DNA from: a virus
Lineage: Duplodnaviria > Caudoviricetes
Strand: one strand, 5' to 3'
Virus record (IMG/VR): IMGVR_UViG_3300023218_000040
Span: 140,015-204,014 of that record
Length of the DNA stretch: 64,000 nt
Shown piece by piece: positions 9,477 through 61,887 of the stretch. The notes under the pieces are model-generated. The model did no database searches. It was not told the origin of the DNA and saw only the letters and a list, made by a program, of their open reading frames with translations. The position numbers were made by a program, and so were the translations under genes. Position 1 is the first letter of the stretch, and each line of letters starts with the position of its first letter.

Positions 9477-9836
9477 ACAGTTGCTTGAGCGAACACTTGA
9501 AGCTCTACGGACGGCGGTTCGATTCCGCCCATCTCCACTAAACGATGGACATAGAGTAGCAGTGAGTGTACACCGGTACTCTATTTTCATTAGCGGCAGA
9601 TAACGCACAACTGCCACATCTCTGGGGATGCCCTGGTTTTGACGTGGTGATGGATGGCTAGTAGTGAGACTGTCGGGTTAGACTACCCCCGTAAAGGTTC
9701 ACCCAAAGTATCTGCAAACGATGCTGTATATGACGAGGAGGTTCTTCCTCTCGCTGCATAAGCGGGAGCCAAGAATTCCTACTGCGGCTTAACAACCCGC
9801 AACGTCCGGGGTCTAACGAGCCTTGTTACCAAAATC
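9477..9836 (+). ncRNA. ssrA: Circularly permuted two-piece tmRNA; tag (A)ANDAVYDEEVLPLAA* at 9714-9761
   Basis: T-arm GGCGG-TTCGATT-CCGCC and acceptor 3' strand CATCTCC-A (9530-9537) precede the 5' strand GGGGATG (9624); G3.U70 Ala identity; CTGGTTTTGAC; tag reading frame ending AA-stop. Confidence 0.93.
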
Positions 9837-10987: not shown

Positions 10988-13150
10988 ATGCACATCAAAG
11001 AAGATATCAAGTTGGACTACTCGGACGTTCTTATTTGTCCCAAAAGGTCAACTCTTGGTAGTCGTTCTGCCGTAGAACTAATCCGAACCTACAAATTCCG
11101 TCACGGCAAGAAATATTGGAGTGGCGTGCCTATTATGGCAGCCAACATGGATGGCGTCGGTACTTTCTCCATGGCCAAGGTGCTTCAGAAGCATGGCATG
11201 ATGACAGTCATTCGAAAGCACTACACGTTGAACGATTGGCAGAAGAATGCTAATGATTTGGATTGGAACTACATTGTGGCATGCACGGGCAGCAATGCGA
11301 TCTTTGATAACGATGCAACCGACTATAAACTCCTTCATCAAGTATGCGAGCGTTGGCCAGTACGGCATATATGCATCGATGTTGCGAACGGTTACCAGGA
11401 GAACTTTGTCGAATTCGTTGAGCAAGTTCGCAACGACTTCCCTGAACATACTCTGATTGCTGGAAATGTCTGCACGCCCGAAATCACCGAGCAGTTGATC
11501 CTGAGCGGTGCCGACATTGTGAAGGTGGGTATTGGTCCAGGATGTCTTGCTGCTGGCAGTAGAATCCTCATGTCGAATGGGTTGTACAAAAACATTGAGG
11601 ATGTACAAGCGGGTGATCGGGTAATAGTACAAAGTGGTAATGCCGCTACAGTTAACCGGCAATTCTCTACCGGATATCGACAGGTCACTTCAGTGACAAA
11701 TGGTTCTTTTCATCGACCTTTGATTCTGACGCCAGATCATCGATGTTTCTTAGGAGACCTATCATCCACTTCGAAATCTACTGTTCAGTCTCGTGGCTAT
11801 CGAAAGATCTTAGAAAAGCCCACCAGAACCGGAGAATCCAAACTGCGATGGATGCCCATCGAAGATGCGGAACATACTGTAGCATTGATGCCTAAAACAA
11901 TCGAATTCGAATTGCCTGATTCTTTCGATGTAGACATTTCTGAACACTTTACTCGAAACCATGAGTATAAAACTTGTGTCGAGTCTAATTATGACTTCGG
12001 ATATGTACTTGGTTTCTTTCTTGGTGACGGAAATGCCAATGTTCGCACAAATCATACTGTGGATGGTGATTCCACATCCGGACAACTGCGTTGGTATCTG
12101 AATGCCAACGACACGGTGATGATTCAGAAGCTAGTGCAAGCAATCGGCAATGTAACCGGAAAGGAACCAGTATTGGAAACGAGTGGTTCGGTTACACATG
12201 TCGTTCTGTATTCCAAACAGTGGACTGAATTCTTTGCCACATTTGGGAAGCAAGAGAAAAAGCACATCCGAGAAGAATTCATGTGTCTGAACAAAGAATA
12301 CAATACCGGTCTTCTGGATGGATTGGTTGATTCTGATGGATTCACCAGTAATGATGGTCGCATCGGATTTACTAACACATCAGAATCATTGATTGAGTTG
12401 TTCGATGTGGTTTGCTATCTGGTGCATGGTAGCTTCCCGACATCTTCGTCTAAAGGAATCTGTCATTCTGCCCTTATACCGAATACTACGAAAGAAGCCT
12501 TCGTTAGTCGATTGAATGTTTCCCATGAGGCCCGACTGTTAGATGATTACGGTGTTGTAAAAATTCTAAACCGTACCGAACATAACATTGAGGTTGAGGT
12601 TTTTGATTTGGAAATCGATGACCCATCACATAGTTTCATTGCTAACAATATGATTGTTCATAATTCGGTCTGTACGACTCGCATCGTGACTGGCGTTGGC
12701 TATCCGCAGCTATCTGCGGTAATCGAGTGCGCTGACATTGCTCACCAACACAAAGGCATGGTCATCGCTGATGGTGGATGCACTGTTCCTGGTGACGTTG
12801 CCAAGGCTTTTGGTGGCGGTGCTGATTTCGTGATGCTTGGTGGTATGCTCGCTTTCCATGACGAGTCTGAAGAAGTTGATGAGTCTGATGGTACGGTGAA
12901 GTTCTACGGAATGAGCAGCAACGATGCAATGGGTCGTCATGGTGCTCGAAAGGATGGATATCGTACAGCCGAAGGTAAGGCTGTAGAGATGGAGTCCCGT
13001 GGTCCTGTGAACAACACTGTCGAGGAAATCTTGGGCGGTCTCAAGTCTACCTGCACGTATGTTGGTGCGGAGTCACTGAAGGAGCTAAGTAAGCGTACCA
13101 CATTCGTACGAGTCAACCGAACTCACAACAGAGTATTTGGAGACGGGTAA
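10988..13150 (+). CDS. guaC: GMP reductase interrupted by an intein
   Basis: LDYSDVLICPKRSTLGSRS, PIMAANMDGVGT, DVANGY, KVGIGPG|SVCTTR, ADGGC, AEGK; the exteins total 346 aa. Confidence 0.93.
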   Translation: MHIKEDIKLDYSDVLICPKRSTLGSRSAVELIRTYKFRHGKKYWSGVPIMAANMDGVGTFSMAKVLQKHGMMTVIRKHYTLNDWQKNANDLDWNYIVACTGSNAIFDNDATDYKLLHQVCERWPVRHICIDVANGYQENFVEFVEQVRNDFPEHTLIAGNVCTPEITEQLILSGADIVKVGIGPGCLAAGSRILMSNGLYKNIEDVQAGDRVIVQSGNAATVNRQFSTGYRQVTSVTNGSFHRPLILTPDHRCFLGDLSSTSKSTVQSRGYRKILEKPTRTGESKLRWMPIEDAEHTVALMPKTIEFELPDSFDVDISEHFTRNHEYKTCVESNYDFGYVLGFFLGDGNANVRTNHTVDGDSTSGQLRWYLNANDTVMIQKLVQAIGNVTGKEPVLETSGSVTHVVLYSKQWTEFFATFGKQEKKHIREEFMCLNKEYNTGLLDGLVDSDGFTSNDGRIGFTNTSESLIELFDVVCYLVHGSFPTSSSKGICHSALIPNTTKEAFVSRLNVSHEARLLDDYGVVKILNRTEHNIEVEVFDLEIDDPSHSFIANNMIVHNSVCTTRIVTGVGYPQLSAVIECADIAHQHKGMVIADGGCTVPGDVAKAFGGGADFVMLGGMLAFHDESEEVDESDGTVKFYGMSSNDAMGRHGARKDGYRTAEGKAVEMESRGPVNNTVEEILGGLKSTCTYVGAESLKELSKRTTFVRVNRTHNRVFGDG
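11543..12664 (+). mobile_element. Intein (374 aa) with LAGLIDADG homing endonuclease
   Basis: Starts CLAAGSRI, ends FIANNMIVHN before Ser+1; GFFLGDG and GLVDSDG blocks. Confidence 0.92.
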
Positions 13151-28247: not shown

Positions 28248-30002
28248 ATGAAACTCCTGGAGTTCCTGGACATCATTCGGGAGGATGACACCAGCGAACC
28301 CGGAAAGTTTGTTGGAGCCCGCCTTACCCGAGAATCTGAACGCAATCTCATGCACTGGATGCGTGAGACGGGCTTGCGTAAGCGTGTCCCACGTGCTCGT
28401 CTCCACATCACCGTCATTGGCGATAAGACTAGGAATTTCGATTGGACTCCCGCTGTATTTGATCCACCCCTAGAAGTCGATGCTTCTACGTATAAGCTTC
28501 AACGCTTCGGGGGTGAGAATGAGTGCGTCGTTCTGACGTTTTCCTGCCCTGAGCTAGAGAAACGTCATAACAAGGCACGTAAAGAACATGGTATCCATTA
28601 TGACCATGACCACTATCAGCCACACATTACTGTTAGTGTCGATCCCAAAGAACTGAATAACCTGGAGAGCCTCCTTCTTCCTACCTTCCCGCTGTATATC
28701 GACCGAGAATACGAGCAGCCTTGGGAACACAAATTCAATGAGAGTTCCGAGCGTCGTCGTAAAGAACGTACTAACGAAGATATTCTATTCGAGCGCAACC
28801 TGCTGAATCCTGAAATGGCGATAGATGCTGCTGATCGTTTCTCTGACTCTTTTGCTCAGTTCGGTGTGCATGTCGCTGAATGGGCAAAGAGATCCATGCG
28901 AAAGTATGTCATCAACAATTTCCCTGCTAAGAAAATCATACAGTACGAGTTGATGGATATCATCCCTCCTGACGCAGACAAACAGAAGATTGTTCAGGGT
29001 GCTGCTGTCATTCAATATCCAAACGACCCTGAAACATTCGGTATCCTGAGTGGACGCACTCAAGAGCAAACTCTGTCATTGCCAATCTGGGCTGCAAATG
29101 CTCTCCAACGGGGCGAAGAGATATACTTCCTGGACAGCAAAGCCATTTTTGGAAGGGGAGGACTGGATTATCAAACACGGATGGTTGCAGACTGGTTCAG
29201 AAATTTGTCACGTACTAATCCACAGTTGCTTGAGCCACATCGACTCAACAGAATGTCTTGGGCTCAAGCTCTTCAAGGTACCGAGAAATATCACGAAGAA
29301 CTCAAACGTAGAAAAGAAGCAGACATTGAGGAAGAGGGAGACAAAGAACTGTACCTGGACCTCGGACAGAATGGTCAATGGTGGAAGCTAACGGGACCAT
29401 CATGCCTTGACCGTGAAGGTAACTTGATGGGTCACTGTGTTGCAGATTACATCGATGATGTAGAAAGCGATGAAGCAATCATTCTGTCACTTCGTGACTC
29501 TAAAAACAATCCACATGTTACTGTGGAACTTCGTCCGTTTGAGATGAAGGATGCACAGGGTATTGCAATCGAACAAATCAAGGGTAAAGAAAACGAGCCC
29601 CCTGTGAAGAAGTATTGGCCGCAGGTTGAAGAATTACTCAAACACTTGAAGAGTGAGACCACCATCACGGCTGGTGATGGCATGGGAGAAGAAGACCTCT
29701 TAGCAATGGGTATCATCATTGTTCCATTTGATGACAACGCAATCATTCGAGTGTCAGCAACGGGAGATCCCGGTGACCCATTAGATTGGAGTATTGAAAT
29801 CAAGGGCGTGATTATCGACATGGGCAAGGAGATGGACTACGAGGAAGAAAGCACAGTGGAAGAATTCTCCAACGACAACAATTTGAATCCTCAAGAACTC
29901 ATCTACAACTTAGCCAAGACCGGTGAATATCGAATCGAGGGGTTTGATTCGGATCTCGTAGTCTATCCAACGTATTCATGGTCGATGAAAAAGATTGGTT
30001 AA
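28248..30002 (+). CDS. Fusion of an Acb1/gp57B-like 2H phosphoesterase and a PcfJ-like domain, probable virion protein
   Basis: VPRARLHITV and YQPHITVS HxT motifs and IDREYEQP match T4 gp57B as I recall it; EG..MGHCV..Y..SLRD..N.PHVT.E..QIKGK.N. Confidence 0.8.
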   Translation: MKLLEFLDIIREDDTSEPGKFVGARLTRESERNLMHWMRETGLRKRVPRARLHITVIGDKTRNFDWTPAVFDPPLEVDASTYKLQRFGGENECVVLTFSCPELEKRHNKARKEHGIHYDHDHYQPHITVSVDPKELNNLESLLLPTFPLYIDREYEQPWEHKFNESSERRRKERTNEDILFERNLLNPEMAIDAADRFSDSFAQFGVHVAEWAKRSMRKYVINNFPAKKIIQYELMDIIPPDADKQKIVQGAAVIQYPNDPETFGILSGRTQEQTLSLPIWAANALQRGEEIYFLDSKAIFGRGGLDYQTRMVADWFRNLSRTNPQLLEPHRLNRMSWAQALQGTEKYHEELKRRKEADIEEEGDKELYLDLGQNGQWWKLTGPSCLDREGNLMGHCVADYIDDVESDEAIILSLRDSKNNPHVTVELRPFEMKDAQGIAIEQIKGKENEPPVKKYWPQVEELLKHLKSETTITAGDGMGEEDLLAMGIIIVPFDDNAIIRVSATGDPGDPLDWSIEIKGVIIDMGKEMDYEEESTVEEFSNDNNLNPQELIYNLAKTGEYRIEGFDSDLVVYPTYSWSMKKIG

Positions 30003-45098: not shown

Positions 45099-45177
45099 GC
45101 TCCGTTGGACTAGTCTGGTTTAGGTCGTCACCCTCTCAAGGTGAAGGTCGTGGGTTCGAATCCCACACGGAGTGCCA
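45099..45177 (+). tRNA. tRNA-Glu(CTC)
   Basis: TCACC-CTCTCAA-GGTGA, cloverleaf, CCA. Confidence 0.9.
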
Positions 45178-45179
45178 AT

Positions 45180-45256
45180 GCACCGTTCGTCTAGTGGCCT
45201 AGGATGCCTGCCTTTCAAGCAGGAAGACGCCGGTTCGAATCCGGCACGGTGTACCA
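45180..45256 (+). tRNA. tRNA-Glu(TTC)
   Basis: CCTGC-CTTTCAA-GCAGG, cloverleaf, CCA. Confidence 0.93.
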
Positions 45257-45451: not shown

Positions 45452-46663
45452 ATGGCCACATTTTCAGTTCCAGTCGTCCGTATCGACGCCATCGAGGACC
45501 ATCCCAATGCCGACGCCTTGGAGATCGCCAAGGTGCGTGACTTCGATTGCATCACCCGCATCGGTGAGTACAAGGCTGGTGATATCGCTGTGTACATCCC
45601 CGAGGCTGCGGTCATGCCCGAGTGGCTGCTGAAGCGCATGGGTCTGTGGGATGAGGAGAAAGGCAAAGGCAAGCTGGCAGGCAAAGAAGGCAATCGTGTC
45701 AAGGCTGTCAAGCTGCGTGGCGTCGTGAGTCAGGGTCTGTTGTACCCGGTGTCTTGGGATGACCCAGATCTGTCTCAGGGAGAGACTGTCGGTCTGCCTC
45801 GTGTCGATCTGAGCGACGGCGAAAGCTACCTGCTGTATGACTGGAACGACGTGGACATCGAGACCATCAAGTCTCGTTGCATCGACGTGGACGTGGGAGA
45901 CGTGCTTGGCATCACCAAGTGGGAGCCTCCCATTCCGACGCACATGGCTGGTGAGGTCTGCAACATCTTCGGCCACACTCTGAAGTTCGACATCGAGAAC
46001 ATCCAGAAGCACAACGAGGTTCTGGTTTCGGGCGAGGAGGTCGTGATCACCGAGAAGCTTCACGGCACCTGGACGTGCTTTGGCTTCGATCCGGACCTGG
46101 ATCACGAGGAACTTCTTCACGGTGGCACCATCATCAACTCTAAGGGTCTGAGCGAGCAGGGTTTGGCATTCAAGTGGAACGACGCCAATGACAAGAACCT
46201 GTACGTTCGGATGTTCAAGCAGTACATGCTGGATACTGGTAGATGGAACAAGGTGATGGACATGGCCGTTCGTCGTGGCGAGCCCGTGTTCATCCTGGGT
46301 GAGACCTTCGGTCCTGGTGTACAAGATCTGCACTACGGTCTGAAGGAGAAGAGTTTTCTGGTGTTCGGCATCTACGTCGGCAAGCCGGGTCAGGGTCAAT
46401 ACCTCGATCACGTGGAGTTCAAGCAGACGTGCTCCTGGCTAGAGGTTTCCACGGTACCGGTCCTGTACCATGGTCCGTTCAGCATGGATACTGCCAAGAG
46501 CTTTCGTGACGGAAAGGATACCATCACCGGAGCCAACATTCGGGAGGGTATCGTGATTACTCCGGTTAAAGAACGAAACGATTTCGTGCTGGGTCGGGTG
46601 ACTCTCAAGATGATCAGCCCGGACTACCTGCTGCGGAAGGGCAATGCCACGGAATTCAACTGA
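45452..46663 (+). CDS. RNA ligase, DRB0094/Rnl2-like family with N-terminal OB-like domain
   Basis: HPNADALE, VYIPEAAV, VKAVKLRGVVSQGL, TEKLHGT, GETFG, REGIV, LK.ISPDYL. Confidence 0.88.
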   Translation: MATFSVPVVRIDAIEDHPNADALEIAKVRDFDCITRIGEYKAGDIAVYIPEAAVMPEWLLKRMGLWDEEKGKGKLAGKEGNRVKAVKLRGVVSQGLLYPVSWDDPDLSQGETVGLPRVDLSDGESYLLYDWNDVDIETIKSRCIDVDVGDVLGITKWEPPIPTHMAGEVCNIFGHTLKFDIENIQKHNEVLVSGEEVVITEKLHGTWTCFGFDPDLDHEELLHGGTIINSKGLSEQGLAFKWNDANDKNLYVRMFKQYMLDTGRWNKVMDMAVRRGEPVFILGETFGPGVQDLHYGLKEKSFLVFGIYVGKPGQGQYLDHVEFKQTCSWLEVSTVPVLYHGPFSMDTAKSFRDGKDTITGANIREGIVITPVKERNDFVLGRVTLKMISPDYLLRKGNATEFN

Positions 46664-51706: not shown

Positions 51707-52627
51707 ATGGCTACATTAATCTTAGCCCATTATTACGCTCCCATCGAAGTACAGCGTATCGCTGACCACACGGGCGATAGCCTGGAACTAGCCCGAGTAG
51801 CACAAGAAGAGAAAGCAGACCGCATTGTGTTTGCTGGTGTTCGCTTCATGGCTGAAACAGCTAAGGTGCTCAACCCGGAATCCGAAGTCATCCTACCAGA
51901 TTGGGGATCTACCTGTTCCTTGGTCGAACAGACCGATACCAACGATCTCCAGAGATGGAGGGATGAACATTCGGACCACACCCATGTGATGTACATCAAT
52001 TCCAGCGTAGCTCAGAAGGCTATGGCGGACTGGATCGTGACCTCACGTAACGTGGAACCAATTATTACAAGCTTACTCAACGAGGGTAAAAAGGTGATGT
52101 TTTCACCTGACCGAAACATGGGAGCATACTACAGACGTAAACTTGATATCGATATGCCTATCTGGTTTGCTGTCTGTGAGGTCCATGACCGATTTGATAT
52201 CGAGATGTTACAAGAACGATTCGAGCAACATCCAAATCGATTCTTGATTGCTCACCCAGAAAGTCCAATGGCTATCTTGGACGAGTCGGACTTCATCGCA
52301 TCCACCAAGGGCATGCTTGAATGGGTCAAAATGTATGATGGTCCATCCGATGCAACGATCTTTGTGGCAACGGAATACGAGCTTCTGGAAATCATGAAGG
52401 AAGAGCGTCCAGACCTGAAGATTTCCCAGGTACCAGAGTTCTTGGGATGTCGTTGTGTAAAGTGTCCGTACATGAAGCTCAACACGATGCAGAAGGTTCA
52501 GGATGCCATCAACGGAAAGTCTGGTGTTCCAATTGACTACATTACCGATGAGCAAGCAGAACGTGCGAGGACACCAATCGAAAGGATGGTGTCCTTTAAG
52601 GAGACTGTGCCAGTCATGGGTATCTAA
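51707..52627 (+). CDS. nadA: Quinolinate synthase
   Basis: ILAHYY, GDSL.LA, GVRFMAETAK.LNP, three Fe-S Cys (TCSL, CEVH, CPYM), AHPE, ST.GM. Confidence 0.93.
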   Translation: MATLILAHYYAPIEVQRIADHTGDSLELARVAQEEKADRIVFAGVRFMAETAKVLNPESEVILPDWGSTCSLVEQTDTNDLQRWRDEHSDHTHVMYINSSVAQKAMADWIVTSRNVEPIITSLLNEGKKVMFSPDRNMGAYYRRKLDIDMPIWFAVCEVHDRFDIEMLQERFEQHPNRFLIAHPESPMAILDESDFIASTKGMLEWVKMYDGPSDATIFVATEYELLEIMKEERPDLKISQVPEFLGCRCVKCPYMKLNTMQKVQDAINGKSGVPIDYITDEQAERARTPIERMVSFKETVPVMGI

Positions 52628-53930: not shown

Positions 53931-54062
53931 ATGACTAGTATTGCACAAATCAAGGACGTGATTTTCATGAAGATCCTACCGCCAATTATTGCGTTGATCG
54001 TAATGATTGGTATGTTGGCTGGCATAATGTTTCTAAGCATCTTGCCTTACATGCCGAAGTAA
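53931..54062 (+). CDS. 43-aa single-TM protein (not in ORF track)
   Basis: RBS GAGG; hydrophobic core. Confidence 0.5.
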   Translation: MTSIAQIKDVIFMKILPPIIALIVMIGMLAGIMFLSILPYMPK

Positions 54063-54076
54063 GCTATATTAAGTAT

Positions 54077-54444
54077 GTGCAGGTATTCAAGCTATCGCTC
54101 GGCCCATTTTATTGGGAGAGAGGAAGTTCGGGACACCATAGTGCAGACCAGTGGGGAAATCCCACCCGGCGTAATGCTGAGGACAAGTGCCATAGAGACA
54201 GACAGCCGATGGCTCACCCTTCGGGTAGGTTGAGCACAGGCAATAGGTGGAACGGTGGTGTAAGAGACCACACGTAGCATGGCGACATGTTGCGGAAGCA
54301 AACTCTGGTCGGTGCAACTCCAGACAGCTCTGATGACTCGGCACGACGAGGGGCGGGTAGGGGGCGAAGAGGGGTGCTGAAAAGCATACCCCAAGATGAA
54401 TGATAGCTCTTGACAGAATCCCGGCTATAGATATCGTAAAGCAC
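54077..54444 (+). ncRNA. rnpB: RNase P RNA, bacterial type A
   Basis: P2 AGCTATC/GATAGCT, GAGGAAGTTCGGG, AGTGCCATAGAGA, CGATGGC, GGTAAGAG-like, AGATGAATGA, ACAGAATCCCGGCTATA. Confidence 0.92.
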
Positions 54445-54470: not shown

Positions 54471-54665
54471 ATGAAACTTCTAAGCGACAAGGAACTCAAC
54501 ATCATCCGTGGCAAGGCATCAGTGGGTCATGCCACTACCGATGAAATCATGAGTGTTTTTGGACACCTGGATGCTTTGGAAATGAAACTGGACGAATACG
54601 AGATGGAGGATATCTTCGGCACTGAAGGATGGCGTCATTCATTCGGGCATCCGGATTCGGACTGA
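54471..54665 (+). CDS. Hypothetical protein
   Basis: LSD.EL..IRGK...FG.EGWR. Confidence 0.6.
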   Translation: MKLLSDKELNIIRGKASVGHATTDEIMSVFGHLDALEMKLDEYEMEDIFGTEGWRHSFGHPDSD

Positions 54666-55195
54666 TGGATTGCATGGTAGACATCGAAACGCTCGATACT
54701 GAGCCCACTTCAGCGGTGCTTAGTATCGGTGCGGTGTTATTCAATATTGATAGAGAGGGAACGATTGACGCTCCCTTCCATCAGAACATTACATTCGAGT
54801 CTGCCTTGACCTATGGCACCTTCTCAGAGTCCACAGTATCGTGGTGGGAGAAGCAAGGGGATGATGCTAAAGCATCGTTGTTTGATCCAGAGCCAGTAGA
54901 ATTGAAGGCTGCTCTTGACGACTTCTATAAGTGGTGCAAGCAGATGAAGGCAAAGAGGGTGTGGGCAAACAGTCCATCATTTGATGTCATCATACTGAGA
55001 AACGCCTGTAAGGAAGTTGGCTCCAAATGGCCTTTTTCTCCATGGGTTGAAATGGATGTGAGAACAATCAAGAATTTGATGCCGGAAGCTAAGAAGAAAA
55101 CATTTAAGGGTACAGTTCACCATCCAGTTGACGATGCGGTAAATCAAGTTGAAATCGTTCAAGCGTTCCATCGTTGGGTTTATAGTGACCGCTAG
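54665..55195 (+). CDS. DEDDh 3'-5' exoribonuclease (Rv2179c/DUF5051-like)
   Basis: MVDIETL...VLSIGAV, WANSPSFD, DVRT, H.PVDDA..Q. Confidence 0.85.
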   Translation: MDCMVDIETLDTEPTSAVLSIGAVLFNIDREGTIDAPFHQNITFESALTYGTFSESTVSWWEKQGDDAKASLFDPEPVELKAALDDFYKWCKQMKAKRVWANSPSFDVIILRNACKEVGSKWPFSPWVEMDVRTIKNLMPEAKKKTFKGTVHHPVDDAVNQVEIVQAFHRWVYSDR

Positions 55196-56206: not shown

Positions 56207-56280
56207 GCCCTTGTAGCTCAACTGGACAGAGCACTCGGCTCCTACCCGAAAGGTTACAGGTTCGACTCCTGTCAAGGGCG
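56207..56280 (+). tRNA. tRNA-Arg(CCT), CCA not encoded
   Basis: GCTC-AACTGGACA-GAGC, TCGG-CTCCTAC-CCGA. Confidence 0.88.
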
Positions 56281-56286
56281 CAAAAT

Positions 56287-56362
56287 GCTGCCGTAGCTCA
56301 GTTGGCAGAGTACTTCATTGGTAATGAAGAGGTCGTGAGTTCGAATCTCACCGGTAGCACCA
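56287..56362 (+). tRNA. tRNA-Thr(GGT)
   Basis: CTTCA-TTGGTAA-TGAAG, CCA. Confidence 0.93.
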
Positions 56363-61733: not shown

Positions 61734-61809
61734 GGGGAGTTCATATAACCTGGGATTATGCTGCCTTTGCACGGCAGTCATGCGGGTTCAAATCCCGCAC
61801 TCTCCACCA
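61734..61809 (+). tRNA. tRNA-Ala(TGC)
   Basis: G3.U70, CTGCC-TTTGCAC-GGCAG, CCA. Confidence 0.9.
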
Positions 61810-61814
61810 AATTT

Positions 61815-61887
<73 letters not shown>

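What the first reader, a model, noticed from the sequence alone, without database searches (positions are those of the whole stretch)
54077..54444. Phage-encoded RNase P ribozyme with an altered P4 catalytic helix
Seen: a full type-A layout, but the universal GAGGAAAGUCCGGG reads GAGGAAGUUCGGGA and ACAGAACCCGGCUUA reads ACAGAAUCCCGGCUAUA, shifting P4 by one pair. Inference: altered specificity, possibly tuned to the phage's D-armless tRNA-like RNAs and permuted tmRNA. No rnpA protein gene is visible in the window.
Basis: partly seen in the sequence, partly recalled or inferred. Interest (0 to 1): 0.65.

Follow-up and report, generated by a model that had tools for sequence, protein, structure and literature searches.

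The report
Phage RNase P ribozyme, canonical P4 geometry
A giant uncultured phage carries a complete, well-conserved copy of the bacterial tRNA-trimming ribozyme RNase P; its catalytic helix P4 is not shifted, as first thought, but has four base pairs swapped in a way seen almost only in phages.

Summary
Window 54082-54439 (+) is a full bacterial type-A RNase P RNA (Rfam RF00010, 168 bits, cut-off 100) on a 204-kb IMG/VR phage contig. The "P4 shifted by one pair" reading is an alignment artefact. Aligned without gaps, P4 is the normal 3 bp + bulged U + 5 bp. It differs from the bacterial consensus by eight substitutions, which fall in four pairs and are all compensatory: 67/359 A-U>G-C, 68/358 G-C>U.G, 71/356 C-G>G-C, 74/353 G-C>A-U.

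The substrate-reading elements look canonical, so nothing points to altered specificity. Six 79-82% identical relatives keep 98% of the modelled pairs, with 17 double changes.

This P4 signature recurs in 39 viral contigs, 36 of them beside at least three tRNA genes. They range from full-length RNAs to miniatures without the S-domain. Among 185,579 species genomes it appeared only twice, both times in tRNA arrays on MAG contigs separate from the cell's own canonical rnpB.

No rnpA was found in this contig or in five related phage records, so I infer that host RnpA is used.

This scan has reported phage RNase P RNAs before on other DNA, and I found no paper describing them. New here: the P4 signature, and a conserved exonuclease gene immediately downstream.

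The parts
54042..54070 (+). Weak sigma-70-like promoter (TTGCCT-17-TATATT) ending 12 nt before the RNA's first paired base
   Evidence: It matches 9 of 12 positions and is no more than shuffled sequence gives (3 sites found, 2.7 expected), so it is a hint only.
54082..54439 (+). RNase P RNA gene, bacterial type A, about 358 nt, with helices P1-P18 including P13, P14, P18 and the P6 pseudoknot
   Evidence: RF00010 168.3 bits (cut-off 100), model 1-367; in 7 related sequences 97.9% of 613 pair cells are standard pairs and 17 pairs carry compensatory double changes; slid controls give 33-42% and 0-4.
54125..54133 (+). P4 5' strand (E. coli numbering A66 G67 U68 [U69 bulge, 54128] C70 G71 G72 G73 A74), part of CR-I
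   Evidence: The alignment to the consensus is ungapped, with substitutions at positions 67, 68, 71 and 74.
54419..54426 (+). P4 3' strand (U353 C354 C355 C356 G357 G358 C359 U360), part of CR-V (ACAGAAUCCCGGCUA, 54413-54427)
   Evidence: Substitutions at 353, 356, 358 and 359 each complement a change in the 5' strand.
54141..54144 (+). P6 pseudoknot 5' strand (GUGC); it pairs with GCAC at 54341-54344 in loop L17
   Evidence: pair 62-261 (numbering from the first base of the RNA) is G-C in 3 sequences and A-U in 4, a clean covariation.
54146..54310 (+). Specificity (S) domain, P7-P14, with CR-II (AGAGA, 54194-54198) and CR-III (UGGAA, 54248-54252)
54356..54358 (+). GGU in L15, the site that pairs with the tRNA 3' RCCA in type-A enzymes
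   Evidence: CGGGUAGG matches the consensus; 9 of 12 tRNA genes in the window encode CCA.
54394..54401 (+). CR-IV / J18-2 (AGAUGAAU), part of the RnpA-binding surface
   Evidence: The RnpA contact with CR-IV is as stated in PMC13022451.
54629..55195 (+). DEDD 3'-5' exonuclease gene (188 aa), conserved directly downstream of the RNA gene
   Evidence: PF16473 Rv2179c-like exoribonuclease domain, E 2.7e-43; phrog_255 exonuclease; the same gene follows the RNase P RNA gene in L027, L235 and L232.
56207..56362 (+). Example of likely substrates: tRNA-Arg and tRNA-Thr genes 5 nt apart (12 standard tRNA genes in the window in all)
9477..9761 (+). Permuted tmRNA gene, another likely RNase P substrate
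   Evidence: RF04321 95.4 bits..

Best explanation
This is a working, selection-maintained RNase P ribozyme gene that belongs to the phage. It is a complete bacterial type-A RNA. Its P4 helix has normal geometry but carries a phage-lineage sequence signature: four compensatory pair swaps.

Proposed mechanism (inferred): after transcription the RNA folds like M1 RNA and binds the host's RnpA protein, since no phage rnpA is found and the CR-IV and P3 protein-contact regions are intact. The complex then removes the 5' leaders from the phage's own closely packed, mostly CCA-encoding pre-tRNAs and from the tmRNA precursor. This adds processing capacity, or replaces the host's, during infection. The conserved DEDD exonuclease gene just downstream may trim the short 3' tails left behind.

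Shown: the fold, the conserved core, the covariation, the phage context, and the phage-restricted distribution of the signature.
Inferred: catalytic activity, use of host RnpA, the substrates, and the exonuclease's role.
For: - Identity: RF00010 168.3 bits over the full model.
- P4: both strands align to the consensus without gaps, and eight substitutions fall in four complementary pairs.
- Register: position 68 is U or C opposite G358 in signature-bearing viral and MAG loci. In one search's 3'-strand-selected set the 5' strand is GGAAGUUCGGGA in 35 loci, GGAAGCUCGGGA in 7 and GGAAGUUCGGGC in 1. Close relatives have G74 alongside a strand carrying C353.
- Core: CR-I to CR-V are all present at the expected places.
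- Fold: type-A helices are 97.9% paired, with 17 compensatory pairs, across 7 sequences that are 79-82% identical to the window; slid controls give 33-42% and 0-4. P6 covaries.
- Phage context: IMG/VR virus record; PHROG families in the window; a 10-kb contig from another sample of the same study spans the locus.
- Signature distribution: 39 viral loci, 36 with at least 3 tRNA genes nearby. Only 2 real hits in 185,579 species genomes, both on contigs separate from the MAG's own canonical rnpB. The canonical form of the same pattern hits 112 of 301 sampled genomes.
- Protein subunit: no PF00825 in this contig or in 5 related phage records, two of them at least 90% complete.
- Substrates: 9 of 12 tRNA genes encode CCA.
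Against: - No activity data.
- No RNA evidence for this phage. Only a roughly 90% identical relative appears as a 272-nt contig in one salt-marsh metatranscriptome, and that library could contain DNA.
- The contig is estimated to be only 55% complete, so a phage-encoded protein subunit cannot be excluded.
- Positions 67 and 68 lie at the P4 metal-binding site (own knowledge), so the swaps could change the kinetics.
- P4 is invariant within the window's subfamily. Support for the register therefore comes from comparison with the bacterial consensus and with more distant family members, some of which I retrieved using the P4 motifs themselves.
Confidence: 0.8

Rival explanations
1. One reading: the P4 change alters substrate specificity, tuning the enzyme to the phage's rewired (D-arm-displaced) tRNAs and its permuted tmRNA.
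For: The same genome carries non-cloverleaf tRNAs (earlier notes e1-5362876 and e1-5341740; not re-tested here) and a permuted tmRNA. The P4 sequence does differ from that of cellular rnpB.
Against: - P4 geometry is unchanged.
- P4 binds catalytic metal ions rather than the tRNA body (established knowledge).
- The S-domain, L15 GGU and J5/15 are consensus-like.
- The signature is shared by phages whose flanking tRNA genes score as ordinary tRNAs (about 50-76 bits under the Rfam tRNA model) and by S-domain-less miniatures.
- Bacterial RNase P needs only the acceptor/T-arm helix and CCA (own knowledge), so rewired D arms should not require a special enzyme.
Confidence: 0.06
2. The signature is adaptive rather than neutral. 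It changes metal binding or kinetics, or it makes the phage ribozyme insensitive to some factor that recognises the invariant bacterial P4 sequence.
For: The signature is near-fixed across very divergent phage RNAs, from full-length to miniature, and is essentially absent from cellular rnpB. A U.G wobble sits next to the bulged U69.
Against: - Seven tRNA-array-embedded phage RNase P RNAs keep the canonical P4, so the signature is not required for life in a phage.
- Seven family members have C68-G358 instead of the wobble.
- No antisense match to the canonical P4 strand occurs in the 204-kb contig.
- Four fully compensated swaps are what neutral drift in a long-isolated lineage would also give.
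Confidence: 0.1
3. It is a catalytically dead decoy that soaks up host RnpA, or a decaying pseudogene.
For: No activity data. It scores lower against Rfam (168 bits) than cellular rnpB (210-278 bits).
Against: All five conserved regions are intact, as are the bulged U, L15 GGU, the GNRA loops and both pseudoknots. Compensatory changes occur throughout the molecule, including the S-domain, which a decoy for RnpA would not need.
Confidence: 0.03
4. It is a host rnpB captured by mis-assembly or by contamination of the viral contig.
For: Twenty IMG/VR contigs end in a host-like rnpB with 0-1 tRNA gene nearby, so such flanks do exist in the collection.
Against: - The gene lies about 10 kb from the contig end, between phage-type genes.
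- An independently assembled 10-kb contig covers it.
- Relatives share the flanking exonuclease gene.
- Its P4 signature was not found in cellular rnpB.
Confidence: 0.01

Closest known systems
Bacterial type-A RNase P RNA (rnpB; E. coli M1 RNA, Thermotoga maritima P RNA; Rfam RF00010)
   Same: Full architecture P1-P18 with the P4 and P6 pseudoknots, CR-I to CR-V, bulged U69, L15 GGU and GNRA loops L9, L14 and L18. It scores above the Rfam cut-off.
   Different: - It is encoded by a phage, with no rnpA gene on the contig.
- Four of the eight P4 pairs are swapped (67/359, 68/358, 71/356, 74/353). This combination was not found in cellular rnpB among 185,579 species genomes, using a pattern with about 37% sensitivity.
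- The A74-U353 pair on its own does occur in a Flavobacteriales rnpB.
Phage-encoded RNase P RNAs with canonical P4 (IMG/VR loci L206, L209, L214, L220, L223, L225)
   Same: Full type-A RNAs embedded in phage tRNA arrays.
   Different: They keep GAGGAAAGUCCGGGC / ACAGAACCCGGCU and score like cellular genes (182-277 bits). The window's lineage is more diverged (the signature-bearing full-length RNAs score 118-189 bits) and carries the signature.
Miniature S-domain-less phage RNase P RNAs
   Same: Identical P4 signature on both strands, the same CR-IV/J18-2 context, and a position inside tRNA arrays.
   Different: Only 139-185 nt separate their P4 strands, against 293 nt here. They lack P7-P14 and fall below the Rfam cut-off. 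The window's RNA is the complete form, with P13 and P14.
Archaeal type-T RNase P RNA (Pyrobaculum) and other naturally reduced RNase P RNAs
   Same: Relevant to the family only: natural loss of the S-domain with the catalytic core kept (own knowledge).
   Different: The window's RNA is not reduced, and it is bacterial in type.

Membership tests
Bacterial RNase P RNA class A (RF00010) | Covariance-model score above the curated gathering threshold over the full model | tested here: met
   168.3 bits against a cut-off of 100; model 1-367; E 1.6e-52.
Bacterial RNase P RNA class A (RF00010) | P4 helix formed by CR-I and CR-V: 3 bp, a bulged U, then 5 bp | tested here: met
   pairs 66-360, 67-359, 68-358, [U69], 70-357 to 74-353 are all standard pairs. 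Supported by U/C68 opposite G358 and by relatives that have G74 alongside a strand carrying C353.
Bacterial RNase P RNA class A (RF00010) | Universally conserved regions CR-I to CR-V | tested here: met
   regular-expression matches at the expected positions (41, 113, 167, 313, 332 of the RNA). The consensus strings come from my recollection of Chen & Pace 1997. The last base of CR-I is A instead of G, paired with U353.
Bacterial RNase P RNA class A (RF00010) | Type-A-specific elements: the P6 pseudoknot with L17, P13/P14, P16-P17 and P18 with a GNRA loop | tested here: met
   P6 covaries. P13 and P14 are present here but absent in L154, L137, L162 and L190. The L18 loop is GAAA.
Bacterial RNase P RNA class A (RF00010) | L15 GGU that pairs with the substrate's RCCA | tested here: met
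   (CGGGUAGG). 9 of 12 tRNA genes in the window encode CCA.
Bacterial RNase P RNA class A (RF00010) | Bacterial consensus sequence of P4 (A67-U359, G68-C358, C71-G356) | tested here: not met
   these three pairs are G-C, U.G and G-C instead. This is a difference in sequence, not in structure.
Bacterial RNase P holoenzyme | A cognate RnpA protein encoded by the same genome | tested here: not met
   no PF00825 in the 204-kb contig (55% complete) or in 5 related phage records (two at least 90% complete). Use of host RnpA is inferred.
Bacterial RNase P holoenzyme | Endonucleolytic removal of pre-tRNA 5' leaders | not testable with these tools
   Needs an in-vitro cleavage assay or complementation.

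The most novel reading that the evidence does not exclude
The four-pair P4 signature is not just a lineage marker. It makes the phage ribozyme orthogonal to the host's: insensitive to a phage or host factor that recognises the near-invariant bacterial P4/J3-4 sequence. The phage could then shut down or outlive host RNase P and take over tRNA 5' processing.

A milder and much likelier version (about 0.6): the signature marks one ancient phage-resident RNase P lineage, in which the window's RNA is the complete form and the S-domain-less miniatures are its reduced descendants. That would be a natural miniaturisation series of a bacterial ribozyme.
Probability: 0.07. Interest if true: 0.85.

Novelty: new variant of a known kind. 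Interest (0 to 1): 0.55.

Why it matters
RNase P RNA is one of the few universal ribozymes, and P4 is its most conserved helix. A virus-borne, apparently functional copy adds the ribozyme itself to the translation-related genes that giant phages are known to carry. Four literature searches found no description of this.

The P4 signature is a simple, searchable marker that separates phage RNase P RNAs from cellular ones. It also ties full-length forms to S-domain-less miniatures. That makes two questions directly testable:
- How far can a bacterial RNase P RNA be reduced in nature?
- How much P4 sequence change does the active site tolerate? The family supplies a natural set of compensatory P4 mutants.

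The linked exonuclease gene hints at a phage-borne module for maturing both tRNA ends.

Tried and rejected
- **Similarity to deposited phages.** blastn of the RNA and of two relatives against 50,697 GenBank phage records gave no phage match. Megablast of the 19 kb around it matched only a tRNA-Ala gene.
- **Literature.** Four full-text searches found no paper on a phage-encoded RNase P RNA. A 2024 review mentions phages only as a source of tRNA precursors.
- **Expression.** No RNA holder is listed for this phage. The one RNA run (X14) has a small share; when laid, it holds a 272-nt contig of a roughly 90% identical relative, and DNA carry-over is not excluded. I do not count this as evidence of expression.
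- **Exact longer motifs.** These found nothing, or only L027, in IMG/VR.
- **Antisense to the canonical P4 strand.** The own contig holds only 3-mismatch hits: 6, against 2 for the reversed control.
- **Rewired tRNAs in the held loci.** blastn with the window's two rewired tRNAs gave only partial T-arm matches, so co-occurrence could not be tested.
- **Automatic folding.** RNAalifold mis-paired P2 and P5 because it cannot draw the P4 and P6 pseudoknots. I set the helices from the Rfam alignment instead. P18 was left out of the control statistics because MAFFT misaligned it.
- **Exonuclease.** It has no sequence match among solved structures.
- **Human H1 RNA.** I considered likening the P4 signature to that of human H1 RNA, but dropped it because I could not verify the H1 pairs.

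Full report
**1. What is there**

Rfam's covariance model for bacterial class-A RNase P RNA matches window 54082-54439 (+) end to end: model positions 1-367, 168.3 bits against a gathering score of 100, E 1.6e-52. The window is the last 64 kb of a 204-kb IMG/VR virus record that CheckV rates 55% complete. It also holds 12 standard tRNA genes and a permuted tmRNA gene. Large ORFs in the window match phage protein families: RNA ligases, HNH endonucleases and head/tail-related families. The RNA gene lies between small + strand ORFs, about 10 kb from the contig end. A weak promoter-like site ends 12 nt upstream, but it is no better than chance.

**2. P4 is not shifted**

cmscan aligns both P4 strands to the consensus without a gap. 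In E. coli numbering the 5' strand reads A66 G67 U68 U69 C70 G71 G72 G73 A74 (54125-54133). The 3' strand reads U353 C354 C355 C356 G357 G358 C359 U360 (54419-54426). These give A66-U360, G67-C359, U68.G358, bulged U69, C70-G357, G71-C356, G72-C355, G73-C354 and A74-U353. That is three pairs, a bulged U and five pairs, as in M1 RNA.

Against the Rfam consensus (GAGGAAAGUCCGGgC / ACAGAACCCGGCUUA) there are four substitutions on each strand. All eight fall in four pairs, and all are compensatory:
- 67/359: A-U to G-C
- 68/358: G-C to U.G
- 71/356: C-G to G-C
- 74/353: G-C to A-U

The "shift" appears only if one assumes a deleted A and an inserted A.

Three further observations support this register:
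- Among 43 loci selected by the 3' strand and its J18/2 context, the 5' strand is GGAAGUUCGGGA in 35, GGAAGCUCGGGA in 7 and GGAAGUUCGGGC in 1. So position 68 alternates between U and C opposite G358, and U69 stays as the bulge.
- Close relatives in a marine-sediment DNA run have G74, and an overlapping contig of that run carries a 3' strand with C353.
- A Flavobacteriales cellular rnpB has the A74-U353 pair in an otherwise canonical P4.

The five universally conserved regions, as I recall them from Chen & Pace 1997, all match at the expected places.

**3. The rest of the molecule is canonical and under selection**

All type-A helices are present, including P13, P14, P18 with a GAAA loop, and the P6 pseudoknot. 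L15 carries the GGU that binds the tRNA 3' CCA, and 9 of the 12 tRNA genes encode CCA. CR-IV (AGAUGAAU), a contact surface for RnpA according to PMC13022451, is unchanged.

A metagenome scan with the 5' motif retrieved six more RNAs of the same full-length type, scoring 148-159 bits; IMG/VR held one, L027. They are 79-82% identical to the window's RNA. I set helices P1-P17 by hand from the Rfam alignment. On these, 97.9% of 613 pair cells are standard pairs and 17 pairs show double compensatory changes. Sliding the 3' partner by 1-3 columns gives 33-42% paired and 0-4 double changes. P6 covaries cleanly: G-C in three sequences, A-U in four.

**4. The P4 signature is a phage trait**

Scanning IMG/VR for either P4 strand found 33 loci that hold both exact motifs in the right order, and 36 when the motifs are slightly relaxed. 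The two P4 strands lie 139-573 nt apart (293 nt in the window). In the sixteen loci scanned with Rfam, 215 matches passed the gathering scores and almost all were tRNA genes. Rfam's cut-off passes only the four full-length RNase P RNAs among them.

Family members with 139-185 nt between the strands have no room for P7-P14, which takes 165 nt here. They correspond to the S-domain-less miniatures that this scan has reported several times on other DNA.

I then used one fixed pattern: J18/2, 7-25 nt, then the P4 3' strand.

| Pattern version | Collection | Result |
|---|---|---|
| Signature | IMG/VR viral contigs | 39 loci, 36 with at least 3 tRNA genes in the held flank |
| Canonical | IMG/VR viral contigs | 27 loci: 7 in tRNA arrays (six scanned: 182-277 bits, cell-like), 20 with 0-1 tRNA gene, many at contig ends and probably host flanks |
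| Signature | 185,579 species genomes | 7 hits, of which only 2 have an RNase P-like 5' partner strand |
| Canonical | 301 sampled Pseudomonadota genomes | 112 genomes hit, about 37% sensitivity |

The two real hits in species genomes both sit in tRNA arrays on MAG contigs. One of these contigs carries phage-family ORFs. Each of the two MAGs also holds its own canonical rnpB elsewhere, scoring 278 and 210 bits.

So the signature is common in phages and was not found in cellular rnpB. It is not obligatory for phage RNase P RNAs, because some keep the canonical P4.

**5. Protein partner and neighbours**

No RnpA domain (PF00825) is found in the 204-kb contig or in five related phage records, two of them at least 90% complete. 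Use of the host protein is therefore the simplest inference.

Directly downstream (54629-55195) lies a DEDD exonuclease with an Rv2179c-like exoribonuclease domain. The same gene follows the RNase P RNA gene in L027, L235 and L232. Several tRNA genes here are only 2-5 nt apart. RNase P cuts would therefore leave very short 3' tails after CCA, which an exonuclease could trim. That role is an inference; the enzyme's substrate is untested.

**6. Interpretation**

The best-supported reading is a functional phage RNase P ribozyme with ordinary substrate recognition, working on the phage's own tRNA and tmRNA precursors.

P4 geometry is unchanged. P4 binds the catalytic metals rather than the tRNA body. 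The substrate-reading elements are consensus-like. The signature is shared by phages with ordinary tRNA arrays and by RNAs with no S-domain. Whether the swaps, two of which lie at the P4 metal site, change the kinetics is open. Work on human H1 RNA shows that exchanging the P4/J19-4 element changes activity about two-fold (PMC13022451).

A neutral, long-isolated lineage marker is the most economical view. An adaptive "orthogonality" role is not excluded, but I found no antisense partner for the canonical P4 strand.

**7. Novelty**

Four literature searches and blastn against GenBank phage records found no description or annotated homologue. Earlier agents of this scan reached the same conclusion on other genomes; those notes are not independent evidence. 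What this report adds: the corrected reading of P4, the signature and its phage-restricted distribution, the link between full-length and miniature forms, and the conserved exonuclease neighbour.

Noticed in passing
window 54629-55195 (+); also L027 8973-9491, L235 1872-2276, L232 288-7 (-): A DEDD 3'-5' exonuclease gene (PF16473 Rv2179c-like; phrog_255) sits directly downstream of the RNase P RNA gene in four subfamily members (window, L027, L235, L232). It may form a two-gene module for maturing tRNA ends.
   Followed up: partly
L157 11626-12018 (-), inside the RNase P RNA gene at 11470-12119: In a 360-kb phage contig the signature-type RNase P RNA gene is interrupted in its S-domain by an insertion of about 350 nt that carries a 130-aa ORF with an HNH motif (CANCHRKEH). 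This could be a homing-endonuclease insertion or an intron. The gene still scores 118 bits in Rfam.
   Followed up: partly
L059 318-724 (-) and L183 5442-5849 (+): Two miniature RNase P RNAs carry an insertion of about 110 nt where the S-domain should be. It contains a T-arm-like GGTTCGAATCCCG followed by ...CCACCA. ARAGORN does not call it a tRNA.
   Followed up: no
L206 (463-kb contig), L220 (369-kb), L225, L214, L209, L223: Other large viral contigs carry cell-like type-A RNase P RNAs (182-277 bits) with canonical P4 inside arrays of 14-24 tRNA genes. Phages therefore hold at least two kinds of RNase P RNA.
   Followed up: partly
L201-L205, L207, L208, L210-L213, L215-L219, L221, L222, L226, L227: About twenty IMG/VR contigs hold a host-like rnpB with 0-1 tRNA gene nearby, many of them at a contig end, and several share the same rnpB sequence. 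They may be prophage calls that run into the host flank, or integration next to rnpB.
   Followed up: no
L190 (alphaproteobacterial MAG contig, 72.7 kb) and L195 (Flavobacteriales MAG contig, 11.4 kb): Two MAGs contain contigs with a tRNA array plus a signature-type RNase P RNA, in addition to their own rnpB. These are probably mis-binned phage contigs or prophages. L195 also carries a c-di-GMP-I-GGC riboswitch (417-497).
   Followed up: partly
window 28248-30002 (+), 45452-46663 (+), 51707-52627 (+): Two RNA-ligase-family genes (phrog_755; phrog_968), the second next to tRNA genes, and a quinolinate synthetase NadA gene. The region looks like an RNA repair and processing hub.
   Followed up: no
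window 45177-45180, 56281-56287, 61809-61815: Tandem tRNA genes are separated by only 2-5 nt, and most encode CCA, so one RNase P cut nearly completes both neighbouring ends.
   Followed up: no
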